A DNA stretch of 64,000 nucleotides from a virus. The position numbers and the translations under genes were made by a program. The notes beneath the pieces are model-generated. The model saw nothing but the letters and a program-made list of their open reading frames with translations, was not told the DNA's origin and did not search any database. Where the stretch lies: the IMG/VR virus record IMGVR_UViG_3300045988_156465; one strand, given 5' to 3'. This document shows positions 3,617 to 61,493 of the stretch, piece by piece; position 1 is the first letter of the stretch; each line of letters opens with the position of its first letter.

Positions 3617-3994
3617 ATGAAAGAATTTGAAATCATCGGCAACACAGTTATTAGTAGAGCATTTAAAGAGGATGTTTTTCAAATTGTTGAAAGAATCCCG
3701 GAAATGTTTTTTGTCTGGAACATCGGGGAAAACATGAAATCTGCGGAATGGATTCCGCTGTGTGAGGCTCTCCATCCGGGAGATAAAGACGATTACAGTA
3801 TCAATCCGGACACGTTAAAAGCCATTAATCTTCCAGAAAATGAAGTAAAGCTTTTAAGGGATGCGGCGGATTTCGGTATTAACAGTCTTGCAACCGCAGA
3901 AAAAGCACTCAAGAGCCGCAGACGTGGTTACATGAGCGACAGAAAAAGAGAACAAGCGAAAAAAGTAATTGATATTTTTCGTAGAATCTCATAA
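3617..3994 (+). CDS. hypothetical protein
   Basis: 125-aa ORF with AAGGAGG RBS. No motif recognised. Confidence 0.6.
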   Translation: MKEFEIIGNTVISRAFKEDVFQIVERIPEMFFVWNIGENMKSAEWIPLCEALHPGDKDDYSINPDTLKAINLPENEVKLLRDAADFGINSLATAEKALKSRRRGYMSDRKREQAKKVIDIFRRIS

Positions 3995-4075
3995 GCCGAA
4001 ACGGTCAGAAATGACCGTCAGCCGTGGGATAGTCTCCCGGCTCTGATGATGGCAGACGAAAAAGGAGAAATGAAA

Positions 4076-4351
4076 ATGACAAAGAAAGATTTAATGAAAG
4101 AATTTAACGAATTACAGGAAGAAAAGAAATGCAGAATCGAAGGTATTTACTGGAATAGTAATAAAAGCAGCATCCAAAATGCGATTAACTGCTTAAAATG
4201 TTCTGATGAAATGCTTGAAAAATATTTAATCGTTGTCAGTCTTAAATATGAAAATATCGGGGAAAGGATAAAAAGCAATGGAGATTTTAAGCACCATCCG
4301 CACAACAGGCTTTATGTTTTTAACACCGCAAGGGCAATTTTAGCCGATTAA
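4076..4351 (+). CDS. hypothetical protein
   Basis: ORF in track. AGGAG lies 8 nt before the ATG at 4076. Confidence 0.55.
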   Translation: MTKKDLMKEFNELQEEKKCRIEGIYWNSNKSSIQNAINCLKCSDEMLEKYLIVVSLKYENIGERIKSNGDFKHHPHNRLYVFNTARAILAD

Positions 4352-12838: not shown

Positions 12839-12980
12839 ATGTGACAGCTGCGGATACTGCGAAAAAGAGCAGGAAGAATGTCCGCACTGCCAAGAGACGC
12901 AATACGAATACTTTTATAGAAGGGATGACGGAGAAATCGTTGGCTGTAGCGAATGTATAGAAAGGATGTGGAGTGATTGA
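12804..12980 (+). CDS. small Cys-rich zinc-ribbon protein (motif shared with 37498..37776)
   Basis: CDSCGYC..CPHCQETQYEYFYRRDDGEIVGCSECIERM. GGAGG lies 8 nt upstream. Confidence 0.55.
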   Translation: MAYPCRTGIKTECDSCGYCEKEQEECPHCQETQYEYFYRRDDGEIVGCSECIERMWSD

Positions 12981-14911
12981 CGGAAGTGTTATTGAAAAAA
13001 ATCAGTCTTAAAAACTACATGGGGGCTGAAAATGTAGAGGTTGACTTTTCCGAGAAAACGGAAATCAGAGGTAAAAACCGTTGCGGCAAGTCTACACTAA
13101 TGAACGCCTACTTTGATGTTATGACAGGGAAATTTGCGAATGGTGCCGCACCGAACAATATTTGCCCTGTGGATGAGAACGGAGAAGAAAAGCCTGTCAA
13201 GGAAATAGAAAGAGCGGTTACTTTGGAAATCAACGGAATTGAACACGAAATCAGAAAAGTGACTAAAAGAAAGTATCGTAAGGGCGTTTTTATCGGAAAT
13301 GAAACTGTTTATATTCTTGATGGCGTATCTGCGAAAGCAGCGGAAGTCAATGATTTCTTGTCTGGTATCGCACCGCCAGAAACGATTGCAATGTGTTCCA
13401 ATGCGTCTGTATTTTTGTCGACCTTGAAAAAATCGGCTGCGGATGCCAGAAAAGCCATTGAGAGCCTTTCTGGGTTCGATGTGGAGCGTTTTTGCAAGGA
13501 AAATGCAGAATACCAGAGCATTTACGAAATGACCGCAGGAAAGAAAACGGAGGACGTATTGAAGCAACTGAAAAAACGCCTTTCTGTCGAAAACGGAGAA
13601 CTGGACAGGCTGAATGTTGAATTGGACTACGAGCAGCGCAGACTTGACAGGTCGGATGATTCTGATTTGCAGAAATTGGAATCCGAGAAAGCGGTTATTA
13701 TCGGAAACATTGATAGTATGGAGAACCTGAAAGAAACACTGAATATTTCAATCGACAGATACACTTTCCTGCTTTCACATATCGAAAAACTCAAAGGCGA
13801 GTTATCCAAAATCGAAAAGGAGCAGACAAAAACGCAAAGGGAAAGAATCGGTGCTATCAATGAAGAATTGGCTGTTCTGGATAAGGAAATTTCAGAAAAA
13901 TCAGCGGAGTTGACCAAAAGAAATACAAAATTGCAGGATAACAAAATCTTTCTTGCCTTAAAAGATAAGGAGTTGATGGATTTGGTAAAAGAACGCCTGC
14001 GGCTGAAAAATGCTGATTTTATCGCAAGTGGCGTGTGTCATGTTTGTGGGCAGCCTTTGCCAGAGGATAAAACAGAGGAAGATAGAGAGCAATTTGAGAA
14101 AGAAAGCGAAGAAAATATCCGGCTTACAGAAAGTGCTATTTCCTCTGCGGAATCCGAGATTGAGGAAGTTGGAGAAAAACTCAGCCTTAATTCCAAGAAA
14201 ATCGAAAAATTAACGGCGTTTATTTCCGATAAGAAGAAACGAGTAGAGGAAATTCCCTCTGAAAAAGAAAAAATATTTTCCGATATGAAATTTTCTGGAA
14301 CGGAGGAATACAAAAGGACTTCGGAAGAATTGGAAAAATCAGAAGCAGAAGCAGCAAGGCTTTTTGAATCGACCGATTTATGGCGGCAGGTAACGGAACG
14401 AATCAGCAGCTACAAGGCTGACCTTTCACAGAAAGAATCTGAAATCAAAGCTATTATCAGAGATACCGAAAATACAGAAAAACGAATTGATTCGTTGAAG
14501 GAATCCGTTAAGGAACAGGCGCAGAAAATAGCGGACGTTGAACGCCAGATTGATATGTTGCAGGATTTCAGCATTGCTAAAAATGTAGCTCTGGAGGATA
14601 TGGTAAACAGGAAATTTGAGTTTATCAAAATAAAAATGAGCGAAGAAACATTGAGCGGAGATATTAAGGAAACTTTGAGAATCAATGTAAATGGCGTTGA
14701 TTACTTTAATGGATTGAATCACGGAGACAGAATTCTTGCGGAAATTTTCTTGTTAAAAGGATTGCAGGACATGAACGGAATCAAGCTGCCGATTTGGATT
14801 GACGATACAGAATCATTGGACGAAAACAGGATTCCAGATGTAAGCCGCCAGTTGATTGTTATTCGCAGGACAGATGATGAAACTTTGAAAGTATGCAATG
14901 GGGAGGAATAA
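12977..14911 (+). CDS. Rad50/SbcC-like AAA ATPase with long coiled coil and CxxC hook
   Basis: Walker A GKNRCGKST. About 400 aa of heptad-rich coil interrupted by CHVCGQPLP (14036-14047). C-terminal LPIWIDDTESLD is Walker B/D-loop-like. TTG start. Confidence 0.75.
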   Translation: MTEVLLKKISLKNYMGAENVEVDFSEKTEIRGKNRCGKSTLMNAYFDVMTGKFANGAAPNNICPVDENGEEKPVKEIERAVTLEINGIEHEIRKVTKRKYRKGVFIGNETVYILDGVSAKAAEVNDFLSGIAPPETIAMCSNASVFLSTLKKSAADARKAIESLSGFDVERFCKENAEYQSIYEMTAGKKTEDVLKQLKKRLSVENGELDRLNVELDYEQRRLDRSDDSDLQKLESEKAVIIGNIDSMENLKETLNISIDRYTFLLSHIEKLKGELSKIEKEQTKTQRERIGAINEELAVLDKEISEKSAELTKRNTKLQDNKIFLALKDKELMDLVKERLRLKNADFIASGVCHVCGQPLPEDKTEEDREQFEKESEENIRLTESAISSAESEIEEVGEKLSLNSKKIEKLTAFISDKKKRVEEIPSEKEKIFSDMKFSGTEEYKRTSEELEKSEAEAARLFESTDLWRQVTERISSYKADLSQKESEIKAIIRDTENTEKRIDSLKESVKEQAQKIADVERQIDMLQDFSIAKNVALEDMVNRKFEFIKIKMSEETLSGDIKETLRINVNGVDYFNGLNHGDRILAEIFLLKGLQDMNGIKLPIWIDDTESLDENRIPDVSRQLIVIRRTDDETLKVCNGEE

Positions 14912-31933: not shown

Positions 31934-33175
31934 TCATTTGGGTGGCAAGCCATTTACAACGCTTTCAAATAAATCCGCTGCGGTCTGTGCCATTTCGTCT
32001 GTGTGGTGAACGTAGGTATTCATTGTGGTTACAATGTTTTTGTGCCCGAGCCGCTGTTGAACTGCCTTCACGTTGGCACCTGCCTCAATCAGCTTTGTGG
32101 CATGGGTATGACGCAGGCTGTGATAATCAAAATTGATTCCAAGCTCCTGCCGGATGACTCTCTGGCAATAGGCAAAGCTGTTTTTGGTTGTCAGCTCTCC
32201 GTTTTCATCAACGCAGATAAAATTGATTCGCCGCGCGTCTGTGGAAAGGATTTTTTGTGTGCCGACAATTCGCTGTCGAGGCGCTCCTTTTTCGTCCGTA
32301 AAATCGACAAGCTGATATACTGTGTAGAATTCGCCATATTTCAGTTCGTTTTTAAGCTGTCGGTTTTTCTCTGCCTTGAGGATTCGGTAAAGGGATTCCC
32401 CGAATTTTATTTTCCGCTTGGAGTTGTACTTTGGTTCTTTGAGGGAGAACCCCAGATTGCCGTTGATGTTCCTGCGGATAAGCTGACGCTCTACAGACAA
32501 CGTGCAGTTTTCAAAATCAACATCGTCCCATGTGAGGGCAAAGCACTCATTGATACGCAGCCCACAGTTCCAGCCAATCATAAGCGGAATATAGTAGCGA
32601 GAACCAACGGGAAAGCGTTTCCGGATGCGGTCAAATTCTGCATCCGTCAGCACGATGCGCTCTCTGACCGGCTTTGCGACAGTACCTATCTTTACAAACC
32701 GACAGGGATTCTCTCGGATATACTGCAAGGGCTGAACAGCATAATCTATCGCAGTAGAAAGGACAACAAAGATAGAGCGTATGGTCGCTTTGGAATAGCC
32801 CTGCGCCTTTAGCTGGTTTATGTATTCCTGAATGGCTGCCGCCTGTAGGCTTTTTAAATAATACGCACCGAACTGCGGTTTCAGGTGCCTGTGGATCAGC
32901 GTTGCGTAGGTCTGCTGCGTATTTTCTGTGAGATTCATTTTGCAATATTGCTCATACCAGAAATCCAGATAATCACTGACGCTGATGGTGGAAGGCTGAA
33001 AGACTTGTCCGGAGTTTTCATATTCCGCGATAGCCTTTGCCAGAGCCGTTTCCGCTTCCTTTTTGGTACGGAATCCGCCCTTTTCGATTTTCTTTCTTTT
33101 GCCGCCGACCTGAGCGGTATCAAAATAATATGACCATGTTTTACCACGTTTTCGTGTTCCGCCTTTCATAAGCAT
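31934..33175 (-). CDS. tyrosine integrase (phage type, AP2-like N-terminal arm-binding domain)
   Basis: This is the E2 int gene. KRGKTWSYYFDTAQVGGKRKKIEKGGFRTKKEAETALAK, then HSLRHTHATKLIEAGANVKAVQQRLGHKNIVTTMNTYVH. Confidence 0.9.
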   Translation of the reverse strand: MLMKGGTRKRGKTWSYYFDTAQVGGKRKKIEKGGFRTKKEAETALAKAIAEYENSGQVFQPSTISVSDYLDFWYEQYCKMNLTENTQQTYATLIHRHLKPQFGAYYLKSLQAAAIQEYINQLKAQGYSKATIRSIFVVLSTAIDYAVQPLQYIRENPCRFVKIGTVAKPVRERIVLTDAEFDRIRKRFPVGSRYYIPLMIGWNCGLRINECFALTWDDVDFENCTLSVERQLIRRNINGNLGFSLKEPKYNSKRKIKFGESLYRILKAEKNRQLKNELKYGEFYTVYQLVDFTDEKGAPRQRIVGTQKILSTDARRINFICVDENGELTTKNSFAYCQRVIRQELGINFDYHSLRHTHATKLIEAGANVKAVQQRLGHKNIVTTMNTYVHHTDEMAQTAADLFESVVNGLPPK

Positions 33176-44587: not shown

Positions 44588-45019
44588 TTGGCGATTGTGA
44601 GGGAGAATGAGGAGAAGAAGCGATACCTAAACGGGTATCGGGATTGCACACGGCGAGAACGGCAGCTACAGGAGCAGATTGAGGAGTTACGCAGTCAGCA
44701 GATGTTTCCGAGTGTGAACCATGACGGGATGCCGCAGGGGAATGCACACAGCGACCTGTCGGGTTATGTGGCGAGGTTGGATGCACTCATCAGCCAACTG
44801 GAGCATGAGCAGGCTATGGCGGTACGGCAGTACAAGGAAATCCATGACAGGATACATAAAATGCAGGACGGGGCGGAGAAGGAAGTGCTGATTCGGCGGT
44901 ATCTGATGGGAAGGACATGGGAGCAGATTGCGGTGGAGATGGATTACAACTACCGTTGGGTATTAAGACTTCACGGGAGGGCTTTAAAAAATTTTGAAAT
45001 TTCTGAAATAAGCCACTAA
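44588..45019 (+). CDS. sigma-70 region-4-like late-gene regulator (candidate)
   Basis: TTG start after GGAGGGG. C-terminal RRYLMGRTWEQIAVEMDYNYRWVLRLHGRALKNF. It lies immediately upstream of terS. Confidence 0.55.
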   Translation: MAIVRENEEKKRYLNGYRDCTRRERQLQEQIEELRSQQMFPSVNHDGMPQGNAHSDLSGYVARLDALISQLEHEQAMAVRQYKEIHDRIHKMQDGAEKEVLIRRYLMGRTWEQIAVEMDYNYRWVLRLHGRALKNFEISEISH

Positions 45020-55966: not shown

Positions 55967-58891
55967 ATGATGTTCCCTACGGAGGTGGGACTATTGGCAG
56001 AAGACGGCTCTGTTGTAATTAAAATCAAGGGCGATGACAGCCCATTTCAAAAGGTACTGGGAAAAATCGGCAGTGCGGTAAATACGGCTGTAAAGGCGAG
56101 TGCTGCGGCAGTCGGTGCGGCATCTGCAGGCGTTGCGGCTCTGGGGACTGCGTGCATCAATGCCTATGCGGACTATGAACAGCTGGTCGGCGGCGTGGAA
56201 ACGCTGTTCAAGGACAGCGCGGACACGATTCAGACCTATGCGGATAATGCGTATAAAACCGCGGGTCTGTCCGCAAATGAATATATGGAAACCGTTACGA
56301 GCTTTTCGGCAAGCCTGCTGCAAAGTCTGGATGGTGATACGGAAAAGGCGGCTGCGGCGGCAGACCTTGCCATTACGGATATGGCGGATAACGCCAATAA
56401 GATGGGTACTGCAATGGAATCCATCCAGAACGCCTATCAGGGCTTTGCCAAGCAGAACTATACCATGCTCGATAACCTCAAGCTCGGCTATGGCGGCACG
56501 AAAGAGGAAATGCAGCGCTTGCTTGCGGATGCGGAAAAGCTCAGCGGTGTGAAATATGACCTTTCTTCCTATGCCGACATTGTAGAGGCAATCCATGTGA
56601 TTCAGACGGAAATGGGCATCACAGGCACAACGGCGAAGGAGGCAAGCACCACCATTCAAGGCAGTGTTGCCAGCATGAAAGCCGCATGGGCGAACCTGAT
56701 GGTCGGCATGGCGGATGATACGCAGGATTTCGATTTGCTGTTAAGCAATTTCATTGAAAGCATCGGCACGGTGGCGGATAACCTTCTGCCCCGTATCGGC
56801 ATTGTGATTGAAGGCATGGGAAAACTCGTTGCAGGCTTAGCACCGGAGATTGCATCTGCATTGCCGACATTGACGAATGAACTGCTGCCGAATCTGGTGG
56901 AATTGGGGGTGCAGTCCATCAGCGCACTGGTGCAGGGCATACAGGAGAACGGAGACAGCCTTGCGGCAGGGGCATTATCCATTGTGGGTACACTTGCGGA
57001 GGGCATTGCGGAGCTGCTTCCGATGGTTGCGGATACGACGGCAAGCCTTGTGGTTTCTCTGGCAGATGGGCTGACGGAAAGCCTGCCCGATATCATCCCT
57101 ATTGCAATTGAAACGATTTCGACACTGGTAGAAAATCTGACGGAAAACGCCAATACCATCATCGATGCAGGAATTCAGATTATCCTTGCATTGGGCGAGG
57201 GGCTGATTGCTGCCCTTCCGCAGCTGATTGAAACCGTACCGCAGATTGTCATCAATATTGCGAATGTTATCAATGACAATGCGCCCAAGCTGGTGGATAC
57301 AGCACTGTATCTCATCACAAGGCTTGCGGTGGGTCTGGTGCAGGCAATTCCTACACTGGTTGCCAATATCCCGAAAATCATTGAAGCAATCGTGGCTGCG
57401 TTCATGGCGTTCCAGTGGCTGAATCTGGGGAAACAGCTGATTGACGGGGTTGCAAACGGCGTGAAAAAAGCCGGAGAATCCATGGCAACGGCGGCGAAGA
57501 ACGCCTTCTCCAAGTTTAAATCCAAGATTACGGGCAGTGAGGTCGCAACCGAGCTGAAGAACATCGGGAAGTACATCATTGACGGCATTGTCGGCGGCAT
57601 CAAAAACAGCCTGTCAAAGATTGCAAATATTGCCGGAAAGATAAAGGACACTCTGCTTTCCAAGCTGAAGGGACTGTTTCGGATTGCATCCCCTTCCAAG
57701 CTGATGAAGGAGGAGGTCGGCGCATATATCGGCGAGGGTATCGCTGTCGGTATCGAGGAAAGCGGACAGATGGCGGTGGATGCCGCGGAGGATGTGGCGG
57801 ATAAGATTGCAGATACGCTGACACAGAAACGTGACAGCCTGCAAAGCAAGCTTGCCGATTACGGAGAGTTATTCGAGCGTGTGAAAACGGAGGACGGCAA
57901 GGAGCTGTTCCAGTTGGGCAACCTCAAGGATGACATCAAGCAGTTGGAAAAATACGGGGATGCCATCGACAAGCTGAAAGAAAAAGGCATTTCTGACAGC
58001 CTGATGAGCGAGATTGCCGGCATGGGTGTCGGGGATGCACTTGATTACATGAACAAGCTGCTTTCCATGTCTGACACGAAACTGGATGAGTATGTTTCTC
58101 TGTTTGAGCAGAAGCAACAGATGGCGCAGGGCGTTGCGGAAAAATTCTACAAGGGCGAATTTGATGCCATGGAGAAAGCCTACACCGGACAGCTGCCGGA
58201 GTTTCTGGCAGGCGTGAAAACTGAGCTTTCCAACGTAGGCACAGCGGTATCCGAAAGTATGCAGGCAGTCAGCGCGGAGGGTGTTTCCGAAGGGATTGCG
58301 GAGCAGCAGCCCCTTGTTGCAGAGCAGGCAAAGCAGCTGACTGAAACAGCGAAGGAAGAAATCGCAGGCTACCAGACGGATTTTAAAGCCGTTGGGGAAA
58401 GCCTGATGGAAGGCGTTGCAAAGGGCGTGCGTGATGGGCAAAGCGGCGTTGTTAATGCAGTTGCAAAGGCATTACAGGCGGCGGTGCGTGCGGCGAAAAA
58501 GGAAATGGACATCAACAGTCCTTCTCGTGTGATGGCGAAAATCGGCGATTACATGGCGCAGGGTGTCGGCGTAGGTTGGTCTGACCGCATGGACAGTGTT
58601 TCGGATACCATCAGCGGCAGCCTGTCCGATGGGTTCAGCCGCAGAATGTCCGATGCGTATGAGAAAATGCGTGCCGCTATGAACCAGAACATGGTGCGCC
58701 TGCGTGGGGATATTGCCGTTCAGCGCGGTGGAGATACGTCCTATATCACAAAGACGGTCAATCATACAGAAGGAAATACGGTGCTGCAGATTGAGCATTT
58801 CCATAATGACAGCAAGGAGGCAGTGCCGAGTCTGATGCAGGAGATGGAATTTTCCCGCAGACGCAGAGCCATGGCAAAGGGAGGTGCATAA
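55967..58891 (+). CDS. tail tape measure protein
   Basis: 974 aa, Ala/Gly/Leu-rich helical repeats, downstream of the chaperones. The start may be the TTG near 55994. Confidence 0.85.
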   Translation: MMFPTEVGLLAEDGSVVIKIKGDDSPFQKVLGKIGSAVNTAVKASAAAVGAASAGVAALGTACINAYADYEQLVGGVETLFKDSADTIQTYADNAYKTAGLSANEYMETVTSFSASLLQSLDGDTEKAAAAADLAITDMADNANKMGTAMESIQNAYQGFAKQNYTMLDNLKLGYGGTKEEMQRLLADAEKLSGVKYDLSSYADIVEAIHVIQTEMGITGTTAKEASTTIQGSVASMKAAWANLMVGMADDTQDFDLLLSNFIESIGTVADNLLPRIGIVIEGMGKLVAGLAPEIASALPTLTNELLPNLVELGVQSISALVQGIQENGDSLAAGALSIVGTLAEGIAELLPMVADTTASLVVSLADGLTESLPDIIPIAIETISTLVENLTENANTIIDAGIQIILALGEGLIAALPQLIETVPQIVINIANVINDNAPKLVDTALYLITRLAVGLVQAIPTLVANIPKIIEAIVAAFMAFQWLNLGKQLIDGVANGVKKAGESMATAAKNAFSKFKSKITGSEVATELKNIGKYIIDGIVGGIKNSLSKIANIAGKIKDTLLSKLKGLFRIASPSKLMKEEVGAYIGEGIAVGIEESGQMAVDAAEDVADKIADTLTQKRDSLQSKLADYGELFERVKTEDGKELFQLGNLKDDIKQLEKYGDAIDKLKEKGISDSLMSEIAGMGVGDALDYMNKLLSMSDTKLDEYVSLFEQKQQMAQGVAEKFYKGEFDAMEKAYTGQLPEFLAGVKTELSNVGTAVSESMQAVSAEGVSEGIAEQQPLVAEQAKQLTETAKEEIAGYQTDFKAVGESLMEGVAKGVRDGQSGVVNAVAKALQAAVRAAKKEMDINSPSRVMAKIGDYMAQGVGVGWSDRMDSVSDTISGSLSDGFSRRMSDAYEKMRAAMNQNMVRLRGDIAVQRGGDTSYITKTVNHTEGNTVLQIEHFHNDSKEAVPSLMQEMEFSRRRRAMAKGGA

Positions 58892-59581
58892 ATGGGTTGG
58901 TTTCATTTTAAAGGAAAGGATAGCCGAGACTTCGGGATTCTGATTTCCGCCGCGCCCGAAAAGGTGAGAGCAGAACGGCGTGTGGAGCAGGTTACCATCC
59001 CCGGCAGAAGCGGGGAGCTGACAATGGACGAAGGGACGTATGCGCCGTATGTGCTTTCGGTGGAGTGCAGCACCAGAGGAAGTGAAAATCTGGATGAAAT
59101 ACTGGCGTGGTTGGACGGTGCAGGGGAGCTGATTCTCTGCACCGAGCCGGATAAGGTCTTTCGGGCATCCATCTATAACAAGATTTCTGTTGCGGATATG
59201 ATTTATCTCTATAACAGCTTTCTGCTGCAGTTTCGGGTGCAGCCCTTCAAGTACAGCGTCAATGCCGCAGGGGATGCTTTGGAGCTGACCGCTCCGACCA
59301 CCATCCGCAACAGTGGTACGGCATACAGCGAGCCTTTGATTACGGTTTACGGCAGTGGGAATATTACGCTGAGCATCAACGGCAATTCCTACCCTTTGCG
59401 GAATGTGCAGGAAAGCATTACCATTGACAGTGAAATGATGGAGGTATTTAAGGGGAACACCAACCAAAACGGCAAATACGGCGGTGTGGAGTTTCCGAGA
59501 TTTGAGGTCGGGAAAAACGAAATCAGTTGGACGGGGAATGTCAGCAAAATAAAAATACAGCCCCGTTGGAGATGGCTGTAG
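58892..59581 (+). CDS. distal tail protein (Dit)
   Basis: 229 aa directly after the tape measure gene. MGWFHFKGKDSRDFGILI...VTIPGRSGE. Confidence 0.75.
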   Translation: MGWFHFKGKDSRDFGILISAAPEKVRAERRVEQVTIPGRSGELTMDEGTYAPYVLSVECSTRGSENLDEILAWLDGAGELILCTEPDKVFRASIYNKISVADMIYLYNSFLLQFRVQPFKYSVNAAGDALELTAPTTIRNSGTAYSEPLITVYGSGNITLSINGNSYPLRNVQESITIDSEMMEVFKGNTNQNGKYGGVEFPRFEVGKNEISWTGNVSKIKIQPRWRWL

Positions 59582-59666
59582 TTGTCGAAAAATGAAATGT
59601 ATGGTATGCTGTAAGCGAGGATTATCGCTTGGCGGTTCAGTCACTCTCTGAAAAGGGGGTGATGCT

Positions 59667-59750
59667 ATGAATTGTGTTACATATTCGGATTTATTTCAAT
59701 TCGGTATGCTCATCGTAGCTATTATCGCCCTGTGTAAAAACAGGGGATAA
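59667..59750 (+). CDS. 27-aa hydrophobic holin-like toxin candidate
   Basis: GGGGGTG RBS. Product MNCVTYSDLFQFGMLIVAIIALCKNRG. It has its own promoter-like TTGTCG-17-TATGCT at 59582-59610. Confidence 0.55.
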   Translation: MNCVTYSDLFQFGMLIVAIIALCKNRG

Positions 59751-59751
59751 A

Positions 59752-59838
59752 TAAAAATTGACCGCCTAACAGAAGTTAGACGGTCTTTCCAAAACCATTC
59801 GGACTGACCGCCCTTCCAAAAGCGGTAATCCTTTTCTT
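59752..59838 (-). ncRNA. predicted antisense small RNA (type I antitoxin candidate)
   Basis: Minus-strand promoter TTGACA (59873-59868)-17 nt-TATCAT (59850-45). Minus-strand terminator GACCGTCTAAC TTCT GTTAGGCGGTC plus AATTTTTATTT ends near 59750. Confidence 0.5.
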
Positions 59839-59878
59839 ATATTTATGATAACAAAAGAAAGATATTCTGTCAAGAAAG

Positions 59879-59912
59879 GCGCATCTGAAAATAAAACGGA
59901 TGTGCTTTTTTA
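59879..59912 (+). terminator. intrinsic terminator upstream of the fibre gene
   Basis: GCGCATC-12 nt loop-GATGTGC (one G-T pair) followed by TTTTTT. Confidence 0.6.
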
Positions 59913-59939
59913 ATGCGATTTTTGGAAAGGAGTGGGAAA

Positions 59940-61187
59940 ATGGCAAAAACGTATAATCGTCTGGAAATTGATGTGAACAAAAAGCCGAACAGCATCGGGA
60001 TTCGCCCTGTGCAGAACGATACAAAATCCAGATATTTGGACGTGTGCCTGTATGAAAACGGTGTGGCAATCAATCTGACAGGCGAGCAGGTGCGTATCAC
60101 ATTCAGAAAAGCGGACGGCGGCACATTTTTTAATCAGGGGGAAGTGACAGATGCGACTGCGGGCAGATGCCAATTTGCCCTGACGAATGAAATTCTTTCG
60201 GAGGCAAAGGCAGTCGAGGCACAGATTTCCGTTTGGAATGCAGGCGGTCAGATTTTGTCTACGCAGGTGTTTGAAATCTATGTGACGGCGGCAATTCCTT
60301 GGACGGATGCGGTAGAAAGCGAAAACGAATACGGCGTTTTGGTGGTGCTGTTTCAGGAAATTCAAAACGCACTGGATACCATGCACAAGATTGCCGCAGC
60401 ATTCGGCGAGCCTGGGGACAAGGCGGCAGAGTACGGCGTGGATACATTCTGGGGGATTTTGGAAATGCTTGCACAGCGTGGGGATGTGGAGAGTGCGCTG
60501 GAGAAAAAGATTAAAGCCTATTTGAATAGTACGATTGGGACAAGTGGGTTTCAGTCGTTGGATAAAATGCTCCCCGCAAAGAGTGGTACGCAGACCTTTA
60601 CCGAAAATGGCACGTTTACCGTTCCCGATGGCGTAACGAAAATTTGGATTACTGCCTGTGCAGGTGGGCAGGGAGGCACCAGATATAGTGATAGTGGTTC
60701 TTATTATTACGGCGGAAAAGGAGGCGATGGTGGCGAGTGCATCATAAGGGAGCCGTATTCTGTTTCAGCAGGACAAACAATAAGCATTACTGTTGGCAAC
60801 GGTGGTAGTGCAGGTTCAAATGGCACACCTACAATTATCGGAAACCTCGTTACACTCCGAGGTGGAGGTACTACAACAGGGCTTGTTGGTGCTGGTGTTG
60901 GTGGTATAGGAGGATTCTATTACAGAGAATCCTCCAGTAATCGTGGGGCTGAATATGGACTAGATGGAGTTAGAGGTAATGGAGGTACAGTAGCGGATAG
61001 ATCGGTAAGAAGTTCCCCAAATGGTGGCGGCGGCGGCGGTTCTTATGGCTGCGGAGGAAATGGTGCTGATTCTTCAAAGGGGGCATCTCAATTTCCGCCA
61101 GGTTATGGTGGTGGCGGTGGCGGCGGTAGTTATAATTATACTGGTGCATCTGCTGGCGGCGATGGCATTGTCATCATCGAATGGTAA
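59940..61187 (+). CDS. tail fibre/receptor-binding protein: BppU-like N-terminal domain plus glycine-rich C-terminal domain
   Basis: NRLEIDVNKKPNSIGIRPVQNDTKSRYLDVCLYENG matches the BppU_N pattern. GTFTVPDGVTKIWITACAGGQGG is followed by long GG-rich tracts. Confidence 0.7.
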   Translation: MAKTYNRLEIDVNKKPNSIGIRPVQNDTKSRYLDVCLYENGVAINLTGEQVRITFRKADGGTFFNQGEVTDATAGRCQFALTNEILSEAKAVEAQISVWNAGGQILSTQVFEIYVTAAIPWTDAVESENEYGVLVVLFQEIQNALDTMHKIAAAFGEPGDKAAEYGVDTFWGILEMLAQRGDVESALEKKIKAYLNSTIGTSGFQSLDKMLPAKSGTQTFTENGTFTVPDGVTKIWITACAGGQGGTRYSDSGSYYYGGKGGDGGECIIREPYSVSAGQTISITVGNGGSAGSNGTPTIIGNLVTLRGGGTTTGLVGAGVGGIGGFYYRESSSNRGAEYGLDGVRGNGGTVADRSVRSSPNGGGGGGSYGCGGNGADSSKGASQFPPGYGGGGGGGSYNYTGASAGGDGIVIIEW

Positions 61188-61199
61188 GGAGGTGAAAAA

Positions 61200-61493
61200 A
61201 TGAAAAACTATGCAATGATTTTACAAAACAGAGTGATTGACGTTCTGAAAGACAGGGAAACAGAACCCTACTATCCACCTGACCCATCGGGCAATCCTGT
61301 GACTGCTATTCCTTGTGACGATACCGTTACGCTTGGCATGATTTATGATTCTGAAATAGGTACGTTTTCGGAATACACACCACCCGAACCCGAGCCCACA
61401 CCAGAACCGCCCCTATCCGAAACCGAACAGGCAATTTTAGAAACTGCAATCAATGTAGACTATTTGGTCTGCATGAAGGAATTAGAGATTTGA
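61200..61493 (+). CDS. hypothetical protein (XkdW-position)
   Basis: AAGGAGGTG RBS. 97 aa with a PEPEPTPEPP linker. Confidence 0.5.
   Translation: MKNYAMILQNRVIDVLKDRETEPYYPPDPSGNPVTAIPCDDTVTLGMIYDSEIGTFSEYTPPEPEPTPEPPLSETEQAILETAINVDYLVCMKELEI

What the first reader, a model, noticed from the sequence alone, without database searches (positions are those of the whole stretch)
59582..59912. Type I toxin-antitoxin-like cassette (27-aa hydrophobic peptide plus convergent antisense RNA) inside the tail gene cluster
A 358-bp spacer separates the Dit stop (59581) from the next tail gene (ATG 59940). Its elements are:
- (i) A promoter-like TTGTCG-17-TATGCT (59582-59610).
- (ii) A leader hairpin AAGCGA/TCGCTT (59613-59630).
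- (iii) GGGGGTG plus ATG 59667, opening MNCVTYSDLFQFGMLIVAIIALCKNRG: one hydrophobic helix followed by a basic end.
- (iv) On the opposite strand, a near-consensus promoter TTGACA-17-TATCAT (59873-59845) pointing back at the ORF.
- (v) A minus-strand terminator (GACCGTCTAAC TTCT GTTAGGCGGTC then AATTTTTATTT) ending at the ORF stop codon.
- (vi) A plus-strand terminator at 59879-59912.

The peptide mRNA 3' UTR would therefore be fully complementary to an RNA of roughly 85-90 nt. That is the geometry of 3'-overlapping type I TA pairs known from B. subtilis prophages (txpA/RatA, bsrG/SR4). Finding such a cassette between Dit and the fibre/Tal genes of a siphovirus is unusual. It may act as an addiction, abortive-infection or exclusion module.
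Basis: partly seen in the sequence, partly recalled or inferred. Interest (0 to 1): 0.75.

Follow-up and report, generated by a model that had tools for sequence, protein, structure and literature searches.

The report
BsrG-type toxin–antisense cassette in phage tail
The 358-base gap between two tail genes of this gut-bacterium prophage is an inserted toxin–antisense-RNA module of the same kind as Bacillus subtilis bsrG/SR4, and it belongs to a large, so far undescribed branch of that family in gut Clostridia.

Summary
The spacer 59582-59939 holds a 27-codon ORF whose peptide passes the curated threshold of Pfam Hol_Tox (PF16935). BsrG scores in the same family, and so does TxpA (sequence recalled, not verified). 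A near-consensus convergent promoter and a minus-strand terminator define an antisense RNA of about 87 nt, complementary to the mRNA 3' UTR.

Comparative data make this solid:
- The cassette sits at the same site in 49 related viral contigs, as four toxin/antisense alleles inside nearly invariant flanks.
- It is absent from more distant relatives, where the two tail genes abut. It is therefore a moron-like insertion.
- Across 65 independent cassettes from Clostridia, the ORF is always open (pN/pS 0.14). The antisense promoter lies at a fixed distance from the stop codon (median 92 nt). An antisense terminator abuts the ORF in 64 of 65.

New here: the mRNA 5' end pairs with its own 3' UTR, exactly where the antisense binds (97% paired, 11 of 22 pairs with compensatory changes). 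This matches the experimentally mapped helix P1 of bsrG mRNA.

Verdict: a new member of a known kind. Expression and toxicity are untested.

The parts
58892..59581 (+). Upstream flank: distal tail protein (Dit) gene
   Evidence: PHROG phrog_33 Dit, E=6.5e-45. TIGR01633 Dit scores just below its cut-off.
59582..59610 (+). Toxin promoter: -35 TTGTCG, 17 nt, TGg-extended -10 TATGCT
   Evidence: Read directly from the sequence. Invariant in 22 of 22 related spacers. Scores 8/12, so the consensus scan did not list it. Function is inferred.
59618..59912 (+). Predicted toxin mRNA, about 295 nt (TSS inferred about 7 nt after the -10; 3' end at the plus-strand terminator)
   Evidence: MFE -106.3 kcal/mol, z = -8.6 against 200 shuffles. 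Both ends are inferred, not mapped.
59618..59642 (+). 5' strand of the long-range helix, the counterpart of bsrG helix P1
   Evidence: Pairs with 59802-59832. 97.3% of cells are paired and 11 of 22 pairs have both-sided changes, against 36-47% paired for slid controls. G.U to A.C ratio is 34:6 on the plus strand. The helix is present in the MFE structure.
59641..59662 (+). SD-sequestering hairpin (SD GGGGGTG at 59655-59661)
   Evidence: 98-100% paired, with a compensatory C-G to U-A change. G.U to A.C ratio is 33:1. SD nucleotides have an unpaired probability of about 0.
59667..59750 (+). Toxin ORF, 27 aa: MNCVTYSDLFQFGMLIVAIIALCKNRG (one hydrophobic helix with a basic C-terminus)
   Evidence: Pfam PF16935 Hol_Tox, 27.5 bits against a cut-off of 23.3. 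Open in 36 of 36 related spacers and in 65 of 65 independent cassettes. Codon-position diversity 0.34/0.10/0.56, pN/pS 0.14.
59750..59838 (-). Predicted antisense (antitoxin) RNA, about 87-89 nt, fully complementary to the proximal 3' UTR of the toxin mRNA
   Evidence: Bounded by the promoter and the terminator. MFE -36.1 kcal/mol, z = -5.5. The same geometry is conserved family-wide. No transcript data.
59750..59785 (-). Antisense RNA terminator: hairpin 59785-59760 plus a U-run over 59759-59750, abutting the toxin stop codon
   Evidence: Terminator scan. G.U appears on the minus strand where the plus strand has C.A (4:19; 95% paired on minus against 88% on plus). An equivalent terminator is present in 64 of 65 cassettes.
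59802..59832 (+). 3' strand of the long-range helix; also the target of the 5' stem-loop of the antisense RNA
59845..59873 (-). Antisense promoter: TTGACA, 17 nt, TG-extended TATCAT
   Evidence: 11/12 with TG, the best site in 44.5-64 kb. Both hexamers are invariant in 22 of 22 spacers. Family-wide, an antisense-oriented promoter scores >=9 in 88% of cassettes, against 17% for the control orientation, at a median of 92 nt from the stop codon.
59879..59912 (+). Toxin mRNA terminator (GCGCATCTG...CGGATGTGC plus T6)
   Evidence: 100% paired on the plus strand. It includes a G.U that would be C.A on the minus strand. alifold gives -16.6 on the plus strand and -4.6 on the minus strand.
59940..61187 (+). 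Downstream flank: BppU_N plus glycine-rich tail/baseplate protein gene
   Evidence: Pfam BppU_N 2.3e-19 and Gly_rich_2 2.5e-13.

Best explanation
The spacer is a self-contained type I toxin-antitoxin module of the BsrG/TxpA (Pfam Hol_Tox) kind. It was inserted as a moron between the Dit gene and the BppU-like tail gene of a temperate siphovirus, probably of Anaerotignum.

Proposed mechanism:
1. An extended -10 promoter makes an mRNA of about 295 nt for a 27-aa membrane peptide.
2. In the free mRNA, the first ~23 nt pair with the 3' UTR (a P1-type helix). The SD sits in a 9-bp hairpin and the AUG is also paired. The message is therefore compact, probably stable and poorly translated.
3. A strong convergent promoter inside the 3' UTR makes an antisense RNA of about 87 nt that ends at the toxin stop codon.
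4. This RNA is fully complementary to the 3' strand of P1. Binding should displace the mRNA 5' end and create a long perfect duplex, a substrate for RNase III. The message is then destroyed, as with RatA, SR5 and SR4.

Shown here by computation: family membership of the peptide, coding selection, conserved position of the antisense promoter and terminator, strand-specific structures, the covarying 5'-3' helix, and the insertion status.

Inferred only: that both RNAs are made, that the peptide is toxic, that the antisense neutralises it through decay, and the biological role. The most likely role, by analogy, is stabilisation of the prophage or locus.
For: - Peptide family. Hol_Tox 27.5 bits, above the 23.3 cut-off. 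BsrG scores 34.5 and TxpA 31.3 in the same family. 10 of 14 variants hit at E<0.01.
- Position. The cassette lies directly after the Dit stop in 49 of 61 related viral contigs, at 73-99.7% identity. There are four alleles, all with intact ORFs of 25-27 codons and an SD.
- Insertion. In relatives lacking the cassette, the Dit stop abuts the BppU-like start.
- Coding selection. pN/pS 0.14, codon-position diversity 0.34/0.10/0.56, ORF open in 65 of 65.
- Antisense RNA. Promoter score >=9 in 88% of cassettes against 17% for the control orientation; stop-to-(-10) distance has a median of 92 nt (IQR 87-99.5); an antisense terminator abuts the ORF in 64 of 65.
- Strand signatures. G.U to A.C ratios are 34:6 (long-range helix) and 33:1 (SD hairpin) on the plus strand, and 4:19 (terminator) and 5:19 (antisense stem) read from the plus strand, which favours the minus strand.
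- Long-range helix. 97.3% paired, 11 of 22 pairs with both-sided changes (shuffle mean 5.0, reached in 0 of 500), slid controls 36-47%. Family-wide anchored test: median dG -44.6 against -27.6 for shuffles, median z -5.3, 79% below -3 (n=53).
- Folding. The MFE contains P1, the SD hairpin and the terminator (z = -8.6).
- Published bsrG structure. nt 1-35 pair with nt 232-262 (P1). SR4 binding frees nt 1-33. RNase III cleaves the duplex (PMC3834814; PMC6562991).
- Positive control. The SPbeta bsrG locus reproduces P1 with the same method.
- Copy number. Several copies per genome and tandem copies, as is usual for type I TA systems.
Against: - There are no transcript, toxicity or RNase data for this locus or for any member of this Clostridial clade.
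- The peptide has no detectable pairwise similarity to BsrG.
- Alleles A', B and C fall below the Pfam cut-off on their own.
- The RNA does not reach the Rfam BsrG model (20 bits against a gathering score of 55), and other clade members give no hit at all.
- Blocking the antisense target adds only 1 bp to the SD helix in silico. The bsrG-type translational switch is therefore not predicted, and it is unclear how the toxin is ever translated.
- The predicted MFE of the antisense RNA is a single long hairpin that would compete with its own terminator.
- The plus-strand promoter is weak by consensus (8/12).
Confidence: 0.82

Rival explanations
1. Same parts, different role: a lysis accessory of the phage. 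The peptide would be a small holin-like membrane protein used during lytic growth. The antisense RNA merely silences it in the lysogen. Late-operon read-through from the Dit gene, which also runs against the antisense promoter, would switch it on late in infection.
For: - The Pfam family is named 'putative holin-like toxin'.
- The cassette lies in the late operon, on the same strand, 3-4 kb upstream of the XhlA-like and holin genes.
- There is no promoter between the cassette terminator and the next tail gene. Late transcription must therefore read through the cassette.
- BsrG and TxpA cause lysis when derepressed (PMC6562991).
Against: - Most of the 65 independent cassettes sit next to ordinary chromosomal genes, not in phages.
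- Closely related phages function without the cassette.
- The prophage already has its own holin and XhlA-like genes.
- The SD and AUG stay sequestered whatever the 5' end of the transcript.
Confidence: 0.1
2. Same parts, defensive role: an abortive-infection or superinfection-exclusion module. Infection by another phage shuts off host transcription, the labile antisense RNA decays, and the toxin kills or arrests the cell. The four alleles would reflect selection for orthogonality or for escape.
For: - Four toxin/antisense alleles reassort freely among Dit and BppU backbones, while the flanks stay invariant.
- Morons commonly carry defence functions, and TA systems are known Abi effectors (general knowledge; cited within PMC11318856).
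Against: - No type I TA system of the BsrG/TxpA family has been shown to act in phage defence.
- Allelic diversity is equally expected from the need to avoid cross-talk among the several paralogous cassettes in one genome.
Confidence: 0.1
3. There is no TA system. The spacer is only transcriptional punctuation of the late operon (terminator, promoter), and the small ORF is fortuitous.
For: - On the single sequence, the promoter and terminator counts do not exceed shuffled expectation.
- The flanking promoter and terminator blocks are more conserved than the ORF.
Against: - The ORF is open in 65 of 65 cassettes, against 6 and 19 for the other two frames. pN/pS is 0.14 and third codon positions are the most variable.
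- The Pfam hit is above its threshold.
- The same ORF-plus-antisense architecture occurs at unrelated chromosomal sites in many genera.
- Relatives lack the spacer altogether.
Confidence: 0.03

Closest known systems
bsrG/SR4 of Bacillus subtilis prophage SPbeta (type I TA; Jahn & Brantl 2013, PMC3834814)
   Same: - The toxin belongs to the same Pfam family, Hol_Tox.
- It is prophage-borne.
- A convergent antisense RNA pairs with the 3' part of the toxin mRNA.
- The mRNA 5' end pairs with the 3' UTR in a long helix (P1) that is part of the antisense target.
- The SD lies in a G-rich hairpin directly after P1 (UCAUCCCC..GGGGUG in bsrG, UCACUCUC..GGGGGUGA here).
- The mRNA is about 295 nt in both.
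   Different: - The peptide is 27 aa rather than 38, with no pairwise BLASTP similarity.
- The antisense RNA is about 87 nt rather than 180 nt. It starts inside the mRNA, upstream of the mRNA terminator, instead of covering it.
- The SD helix is already 9 bp in the free mRNA and gains only 1 bp when the target is blocked. The 4-to-8-bp translational switch of bsrG is not predicted.
- The Rfam BsrG model is not reached.
- The host is in Clostridia, not Bacilli.
txpA/RatA (skin element) and bsrE/SR5 (P6 prophage) of B. subtilis
   Same: - 3'-overlapping antisense RNA, SD in a stable hairpin, and an antitoxin that acts through RNase III-dependent decay without remodelling the SD (PMC6562991). This is the behaviour predicted here.
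- BsrE and BsrH (30 and 29 aa) are similar in size to this peptide.
   Different: - Their antisense RNAs are longer (163-222 nt).
- TxpA is 59 aa.
- Similarity to BsrE/BsrH could not be tested, because I had no verified sequence for either.
hok/Sok fold-back inhibition (fbi) element
   Same: The 5' and 3' ends of the toxin mRNA pair to give a compact, poorly translated full-length message (mentioned in PMC3834814).
   Different: - Sok binds the 5' leader, not the 3' UTR.
- Activation is by 3' exonucleolytic trimming.
- The peptide family is unrelated, and the system is from Gram-negative plasmids.
par (fst RNA I/RNA II) of Enterococcus faecalis pAD1
   Same: Convergent transcription with a shared terminator region, and a small hydrophobic toxin.
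   Different: In par, the antitoxin 5' repeats are complementary to the toxin 5' region. Here the antisense 5' part has the same sense as the mRNA 5' UTR. It mimics the 5' UTR rather than pairing with it.
Clostridioides difficile prophage type I TA modules (CD0956.2/RCd10 and others; PMC6563280)
   Same: Clostridia, prophage-borne, a small membrane toxin with a basic C-terminus, and a proposed prophage-stabilising role.
   Different: No sequence relationship is reported between those toxins and the B. subtilis families. Their toxins are 34-59 aa, and their antitoxin arrangements differ.
Phage morons (for example the lambda and HK97 type)
   Same: An autonomous unit with its own promoter and terminator, inserted between two late genes that abut in relatives, and expressed from the prophage.
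   Different: The cargo here is a toxin/antisense pair rather than a single protein gene.

Membership tests
Pfam PF16935 Hol_Tox (family containing BsrG and TxpA) | Peptide scores at or above the curated gathering threshold of the family HMM | tested here: met
   The window peptide scores 27.5 bits against a cut-off of 23.3. BsrG scores 34.5 and TxpA 31.3. Alleles A', B and C score only 14-17 bits or give no hit. 10 of 14 variants hit at E<0.01.
Type I toxin-antitoxin system (general) | Small (<60 aa) hydrophobic peptide with one predicted membrane helix and a charged C-terminus, under protein-level selection | tested here: met
   The sequence has a hydrophobic core LFQFGMLIVAIIALC followed by KNRG. 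pN/pS is 0.14 and the ORF is open in 65 of 65 cassettes.
Type I toxin-antitoxin system (general) | An antisense RNA gene whose product pairs with the toxin mRNA | tested here: met
   Sequence evidence only. Convergent promoter at 11/12 with TG, plus a terminator. Both are conserved in position across 65 cassettes. Minus-strand-specific G.U pairs are present. Whether the RNA is expressed is unknown.
Type I toxin-antitoxin system (general) | The peptide is toxic when overexpressed, and the toxicity is neutralised by the RNA | not testable with these tools
   Requires experiments.
bsrG/SR4-type architecture | Long helix P1 between the mRNA 5' end and the 3' UTR, lying within the antisense target | tested here: met
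   97.3% paired with 11 compensatory pairs. Family-wide median z is -5.3. The helix is present in the MFE structure.
bsrG/SR4-type architecture | SD sequestered in a hairpin directly 3' of P1 | tested here: met
   9-bp hairpin, 98-100% paired, with compensatory change.
bsrG/SR4-type architecture | Antitoxin binding extends the SD helix (4 to 8 bp), inhibiting translation | tested here: not met
   In silico, blocking 59752-59838 adds only G59640-U59663. This resembles txpA/RatA and bsrE/SR5 instead.
bsrG/SR4-type architecture | RNase III cleavage of the toxin mRNA/antitoxin duplex | not testable with these tools
   A perfect duplex of about 87 bp is predicted. Cleavage needs experiment.
Rfam RF01412 BsrG RNA | Covariance-model score at or above the gathering threshold (55 bits) | tested here: not met
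   20 bits over the SD hairpin plus ORF only. The SPbeta positive control scores 210 bits, and other Clostridial cassettes give no hit.
TxpA/BsrG toxin subfamily in the narrow sense | Pairwise sequence similarity to BsrG | tested here: not met
   BLASTP finds no alignment at E<=100.
BsrE/BsrH toxin subfamily | Sequence similarity to BsrE or BsrH (29-30 aa) | not tested
   No verified BsrE or BsrH sequence was at hand. The only hint is a weak sub-threshold NCBIfam hit to ComI (21.4 bits against 55).
Phage moron | Own promoter and terminator; inserted between genes that are adjacent in related phages | tested here: met
   Promoters and terminators. In L053-55 and L061, Dit and the BppU-like gene abut with a 0-nt gap.
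par/Fst-type type I TA | Antitoxin 5' repeats complementary to the toxin 5' translation-initiation region | tested here: not met
   The antisense 5' part has the same sense as the mRNA 5' UTR, because both are complementary to 59802-59832.

The most novel reading that the evidence does not exclude
The cassette may not be a mere addiction module. It could be a recombining 'specificity' locus of the tail operon. Four mutually orthogonal toxin/antisense alleles would be kept at one site by balancing selection. Late-operon read-through, which must cross the cassette and runs head-on into the antisense promoter, would switch the toxin on during lytic growth or on superinfection. That would couple a type I TA system to lysis timing or to exclusion of related phages.
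Probability: 0.12. Interest if true: 0.7.

Novelty: new member of a known kind. Interest (0 to 1): 0.45.

Why it matters
Reviews state that txpA/bsrG-like systems are confined to a few Bacillus and Paenibacillus species, and that homology searches found almost nothing in Clostridia (PMC6562991, PMC6563280). This locus shows that a Hol_Tox-type toxin with the full bsrG-like RNA architecture is widespread in gut Clostridia and their phages. At least 253 loci were found among species-representative genomes. That architecture comprises the P1 helix, an occluded SD and a short convergent antisense RNA.

It offers three things:
- About 65 independent natural variants for studying how a 5'-3' helix and an antisense RNA co-evolve.
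- A set of naturally orthogonal RNA pairs, of the kind now being engineered from bsrG/SR4 (PMC12721322).
- A marker for annotation: peptides of 25-31 aa that gene callers miss, inside abundant human-gut prophages.

It does not reveal a new principle.

Tried and rejected
- DNA searches. blastn of the spacer and of 58800-61300 against 50,697 GenBank phages found nothing. tblastn of the peptide against the same set found nothing even at E<=10.
- Large protein searches. The search for homologous proteins refuses queries shorter than 40 aa. The representative-library search and structure prediction need at least 30 aa, so neither could be used for the peptide.
- Genome scan. The first attempt, with a 14-peptide alignment, failed because no stretch was conserved enough. 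A tighter alignment worked.
- Fixed-window duplex test. Taking -75..-8 against the first 170 nt after the stop gave only a median z of -2.7, because leaders in the second clade are longer and G+C-rich sequences pair well by chance. I replaced it with a test anchored on each cassette's own antisense promoter.
- Alignment of the antisense terminator. MAFFT misaligned the loop between alleles, so alifold lost that hairpin. I judged it from arm sequences and strand asymmetry instead.
- Other rejected ideas: the par/Fst direct-repeat model, a bsrG-type SD switch, and coding potential of the minus-strand ORFs 59766-59873 and 59776-60069. Those two overlap the conserved promoter and the RNA, and I found no support for them.
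- PADLOC was not searched.
Full report
**1. What is in the window**

The window from about 32 kb onward is a temperate siphovirus-type prophage. Its recognisable genes, in order, are:
- integrase, 31934-33175 (minus strand);
- primase/helicase;
- a late-regulator-like gene, 44588-45019;
- TerS, TerL and portal;
- major head protein;
- tape measure, 55967-58891;
- Dit, 58892-59581;
- a BppU_N/glycine-rich protein, 59940-61187;
- a Tal-like tail protein;
- XhlA-like and holin-like genes.

Anaerotignum MAG contigs are 90-94% identical to the window around the finding. Two of them encode the identical peptide, so the host is probably Anaerotignum.

On this one sequence the counts of promoter-like and terminator-like sites are no higher than in shuffles. 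The case therefore rests on comparative evidence.

**2. The peptide**

MNCVTYSDLFQFGMLIVAIIALCKNRG passes the curated threshold of Pfam PF16935 Hol_Tox (27.5 bits against 23.3). I recalled the BsrG sequence from memory and verified it as a 100% tblastn match in phage SPbeta. It scores 34.5 bits in the same family, and TxpA (recalled, not verified) scores 31.3. PF16935 is therefore the family that holds at least one experimentally validated B. subtilis toxin.

Pairwise BLASTP against BsrG finds nothing. Membership is thus at the family-profile level only. NCBIfam gives only weak sub-threshold hits, to ComI and PepG1.

**3. Relatives of the locus**

The Dit protein retrieved 61 related viral contigs. 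In 49 of them the 358-bp spacer follows the Dit stop codon directly, at 73-99.7% identity. Seven further contigs end exactly at that stop codon.

The alignment (A1) shows two kinds of segment:
- Nearly invariant: both promoters, the plus-strand terminator and the ends of the flanking genes.
- Variable: the segment from the 5' UTR to the antisense -10 box, which falls into four alleles (A, A', B, C).

Each allele keeps an SD, an ATG and an open frame of 25-27 codons. This holds in 36 of 36 unique sequences. Alleles A and B occur next to all three Dit types and next to both BppU-like types, so the core reassorts independently of its flanks.

In the more distant relatives L053-55 and L061, the Dit stop codon is immediately followed by the start of the BppU-like gene. 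The cassette is therefore an insertion, a moron in the usual sense.

**4. The wider family**

Searching by peptide pattern found further variants in viral contigs. It also found 253 loci in species-representative genomes, with the best 80 retained.
- Nearly all retained loci are from Clostridia-type Firmicutes. Named genera include Anaerotignum, Agathobaculum, Anaerovorax, Flintibacter, Oribacterium, Butyricicoccus, many Lachnospiraceae, Blautia and Bulleidia.
- Several copies per genome are common, and some copies are in tandem.

After clustering, 65 independent cassettes remain. Their neighbours are mostly ordinary chromosomal genes, plus some integrases, a portal and a terminase. The family is therefore broad, and the Dit-BppU site is peculiar to this phage group.

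Across the 65 cassettes:

| Feature | Result |
|---|---|
| ORF open | 65/65 (other two frames: 6 and 19) |
| Diversity by codon position | 0.34 / 0.10 / 0.56 |
| pN/pS | 0.14 |
| Antisense-oriented sigma-70 promoter scoring >=9 | 88%, against 17% for the same DNA read the other way |
| Distance from stop codon to antisense -10 | median 92 nt, IQR 87-99.5 |
| Minus-strand hairpin plus U-run abutting the ORF 3' end | 64/65 |
| Plus-strand terminator beyond the antisense promoter | 47/65 |

**5.

The mRNA 5' end (59618-59642) is complementary to its own 3' UTR (59802-59832). That is exactly the segment bound by the 5' part of the antisense RNA.

- On the phage-group alignment, the helix is 97% paired, against 23-55% for slid controls. 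However, only about two lineages are represented there.
- On 20 independent cassettes from different genera (A5), it is 97.3% paired. 11 of 22 pairs show changes on both sides (shuffle mean 5.0, reached in 0 of 500). Slid controls give 36-47% paired and at most 3 such pairs.
- Mismatch asymmetry rules out a mere DNA inverted repeat. Non-Watson-Crick cells are G.U 34 times and A.C 6 times on the plus strand.
- The SD hairpin gives 33:1, also favouring the plus strand.
- The ORF-proximal terminator (4:19) and the outer stem of the local 3' UTR hairpin (5:19) show the reverse. They are better paired in the minus-strand RNA. Each predicted transcript thus leaves its own structural signature.
- In a test anchored on each cassette's own antisense promoter, I took the 44 nt just inside the antisense TSS and paired them with the leader. 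Median dG was -44.6 against -27.6 kcal/mol for shuffles. Median z was -5.3, and 79% were below -3 (n=53). This includes clades whose sequences are unrelated to the window's.

Its 3' arm is part of this long-range helix.

**6. Comparison with what is known**

Structure probing of bsrG mRNA showed the following (Jahn & Brantl 2013, PMC3834814):
- nt 1-35 pair with nt 232-262 in a long helix called P1;
- the SD lies in a helix directly after P1;
- the terminator follows P1;
- SR4 binding makes nt 1-33 single-stranded and extends the SD helix from 4 to 8 bp;
- RNase III cleaves the duplex.

The long-range helix found here is the counterpart of P1. As a positive control, the SPbeta locus scores 210 bits on Rfam BsrG, and its MFE reproduces P1 with my procedure.

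The window's mRNA (59618-59912) folds with z = -8.6 into four elements:
- P1;
- a 9-bp SD hairpin;
- a paired AUG;
- the terminator.

Differences from bsrG:
- Blocking the antisense target frees the 5' end but adds only one base pair to the SD helix. The predicted mode is therefore decay only, as reported for RatA and SR5 (PMC6562991).
- The antisense RNA is about 87 nt, not 180 nt, and it starts upstream of the mRNA terminator.
- The Rfam BsrG model is not reached (20 bits against 55).

The antisense RNA folds with z = -5.5. Its MFE is a single long hairpin rather than a 5' stem-loop plus terminator, so alternative conformers are possible. This remains unexplained.

**7. Mechanism**

The inferred steps are marked as such in the Best explanation section. 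In brief:
- The toxin mRNA is held compact and poorly translatable by P1, the SD hairpin and AUG pairing.
- The abundant antisense RNA invades the 3' strand of P1 and forms a perfect duplex of about 87 bp. This exposes the mRNA 5' end and triggers RNase III-dependent decay.

Loss of the prophage, or a shut-off of transcription, would let the toxin mRNA outlast the antisense RNA, if the usual stability difference holds. Type I toxin mRNAs are usually the more stable partner.

The cassette terminator at 59879-59912 sits inside the late operon, and no promoter lies before the next tail gene. Late transcription must therefore read through it. This leaves room for a lytic-cycle role.

**8. Novelty and score**

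Reviews place txpA/bsrG-like systems only in a few Bacillus and Paenibacillus species. They report almost no homologues of known type I toxins in Clostridia, the exception being a TxpA-like hit in C. bolteae. I found no paper in the searchable library that describes this family in gut Clostridia or their phages.

The locus is a new member, and the doorway to a large undescribed clade, of a known kind of system. The principle and most of the architecture are already established. Interest 0.45.

Noticed in passing
window 3994-4061 (+): A type II hammerhead ribozyme (Rfam RF02276, 58.5 bits against a gathering score of 37). It fills the 51-nt gap between ORF 3617-3994 and ORF 4046-4351, starting at the stop codon of the first. 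Neither ORF has a PHROG hit.
   Followed up: partly
window 1-31000 compared with 32000-64000: Composition shifts from 37-43% G+C (1-30 kb) to 45-54% (40-64 kb). A tyrosine integrase lies at 31934-33175 (minus). The prophage carrying the cassette probably begins near 32 kb. The left part is a different, lower-G+C element with an SbcC-like gene (12977-14911) and two tRNA genes at 1-49 and 232-302.
   Followed up: partly
L070 2871-3344 (IMGVR_UViG_3300029561_000244): A window-type cassette with an insertion of about 60 nt between the SD and the ORF. The ATG is replaced by GTA, so the toxin frame has no SD-linked start. The antisense side is intact. This is probably a naturally toxin-null copy.
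   Followed up: partly
L003, L006, L008, L033, L037, L040, L057 (contig ends): Seven viral contigs end exactly at the Dit stop codon. This looks like assembly breaks at the polymorphic cassette, which would mean several alleles coexist in one sample.
   Followed up: no
L074 (2472 and 3007), L142 (2998 and 3540), L159 (2998 and 3545), L175 (2587 and 3007), L136 (2198 and 3350): Tandem copies of the cassette, 420-1150 nt apart, with diverged peptides and RNAs.
   Followed up: no
window 59750-59838 (-); repeats at 59760-59766 and 59806-59812: The predicted MFE of the antisense RNA is one long hairpin. In it, the 5' part pairs with the 3' arm of its own terminator, because GACCGCC occurs twice. 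The repeat changes in step in allele B (GCCGCC at both positions). It could be an alternative conformer with regulatory meaning.
   Followed up: partly
L173 and L181 (JAMPFK010000021.1 and JAMPFK010000006.1): Two contigs of a MAG labelled Bacteroides fragilis carry Clostridia-type cassettes. They are most likely mis-binned contigs.
   Followed up: no
window 59879-59912 and 59913-59939: A strong intrinsic terminator lies inside the late operon, and no promoter is detectable before the next tail gene. Expression of the downstream tail and lysis genes therefore implies terminator read-through or antitermination. The only candidate regulator I saw is the activator-like gene at 44588-45019.
   Followed up: partly
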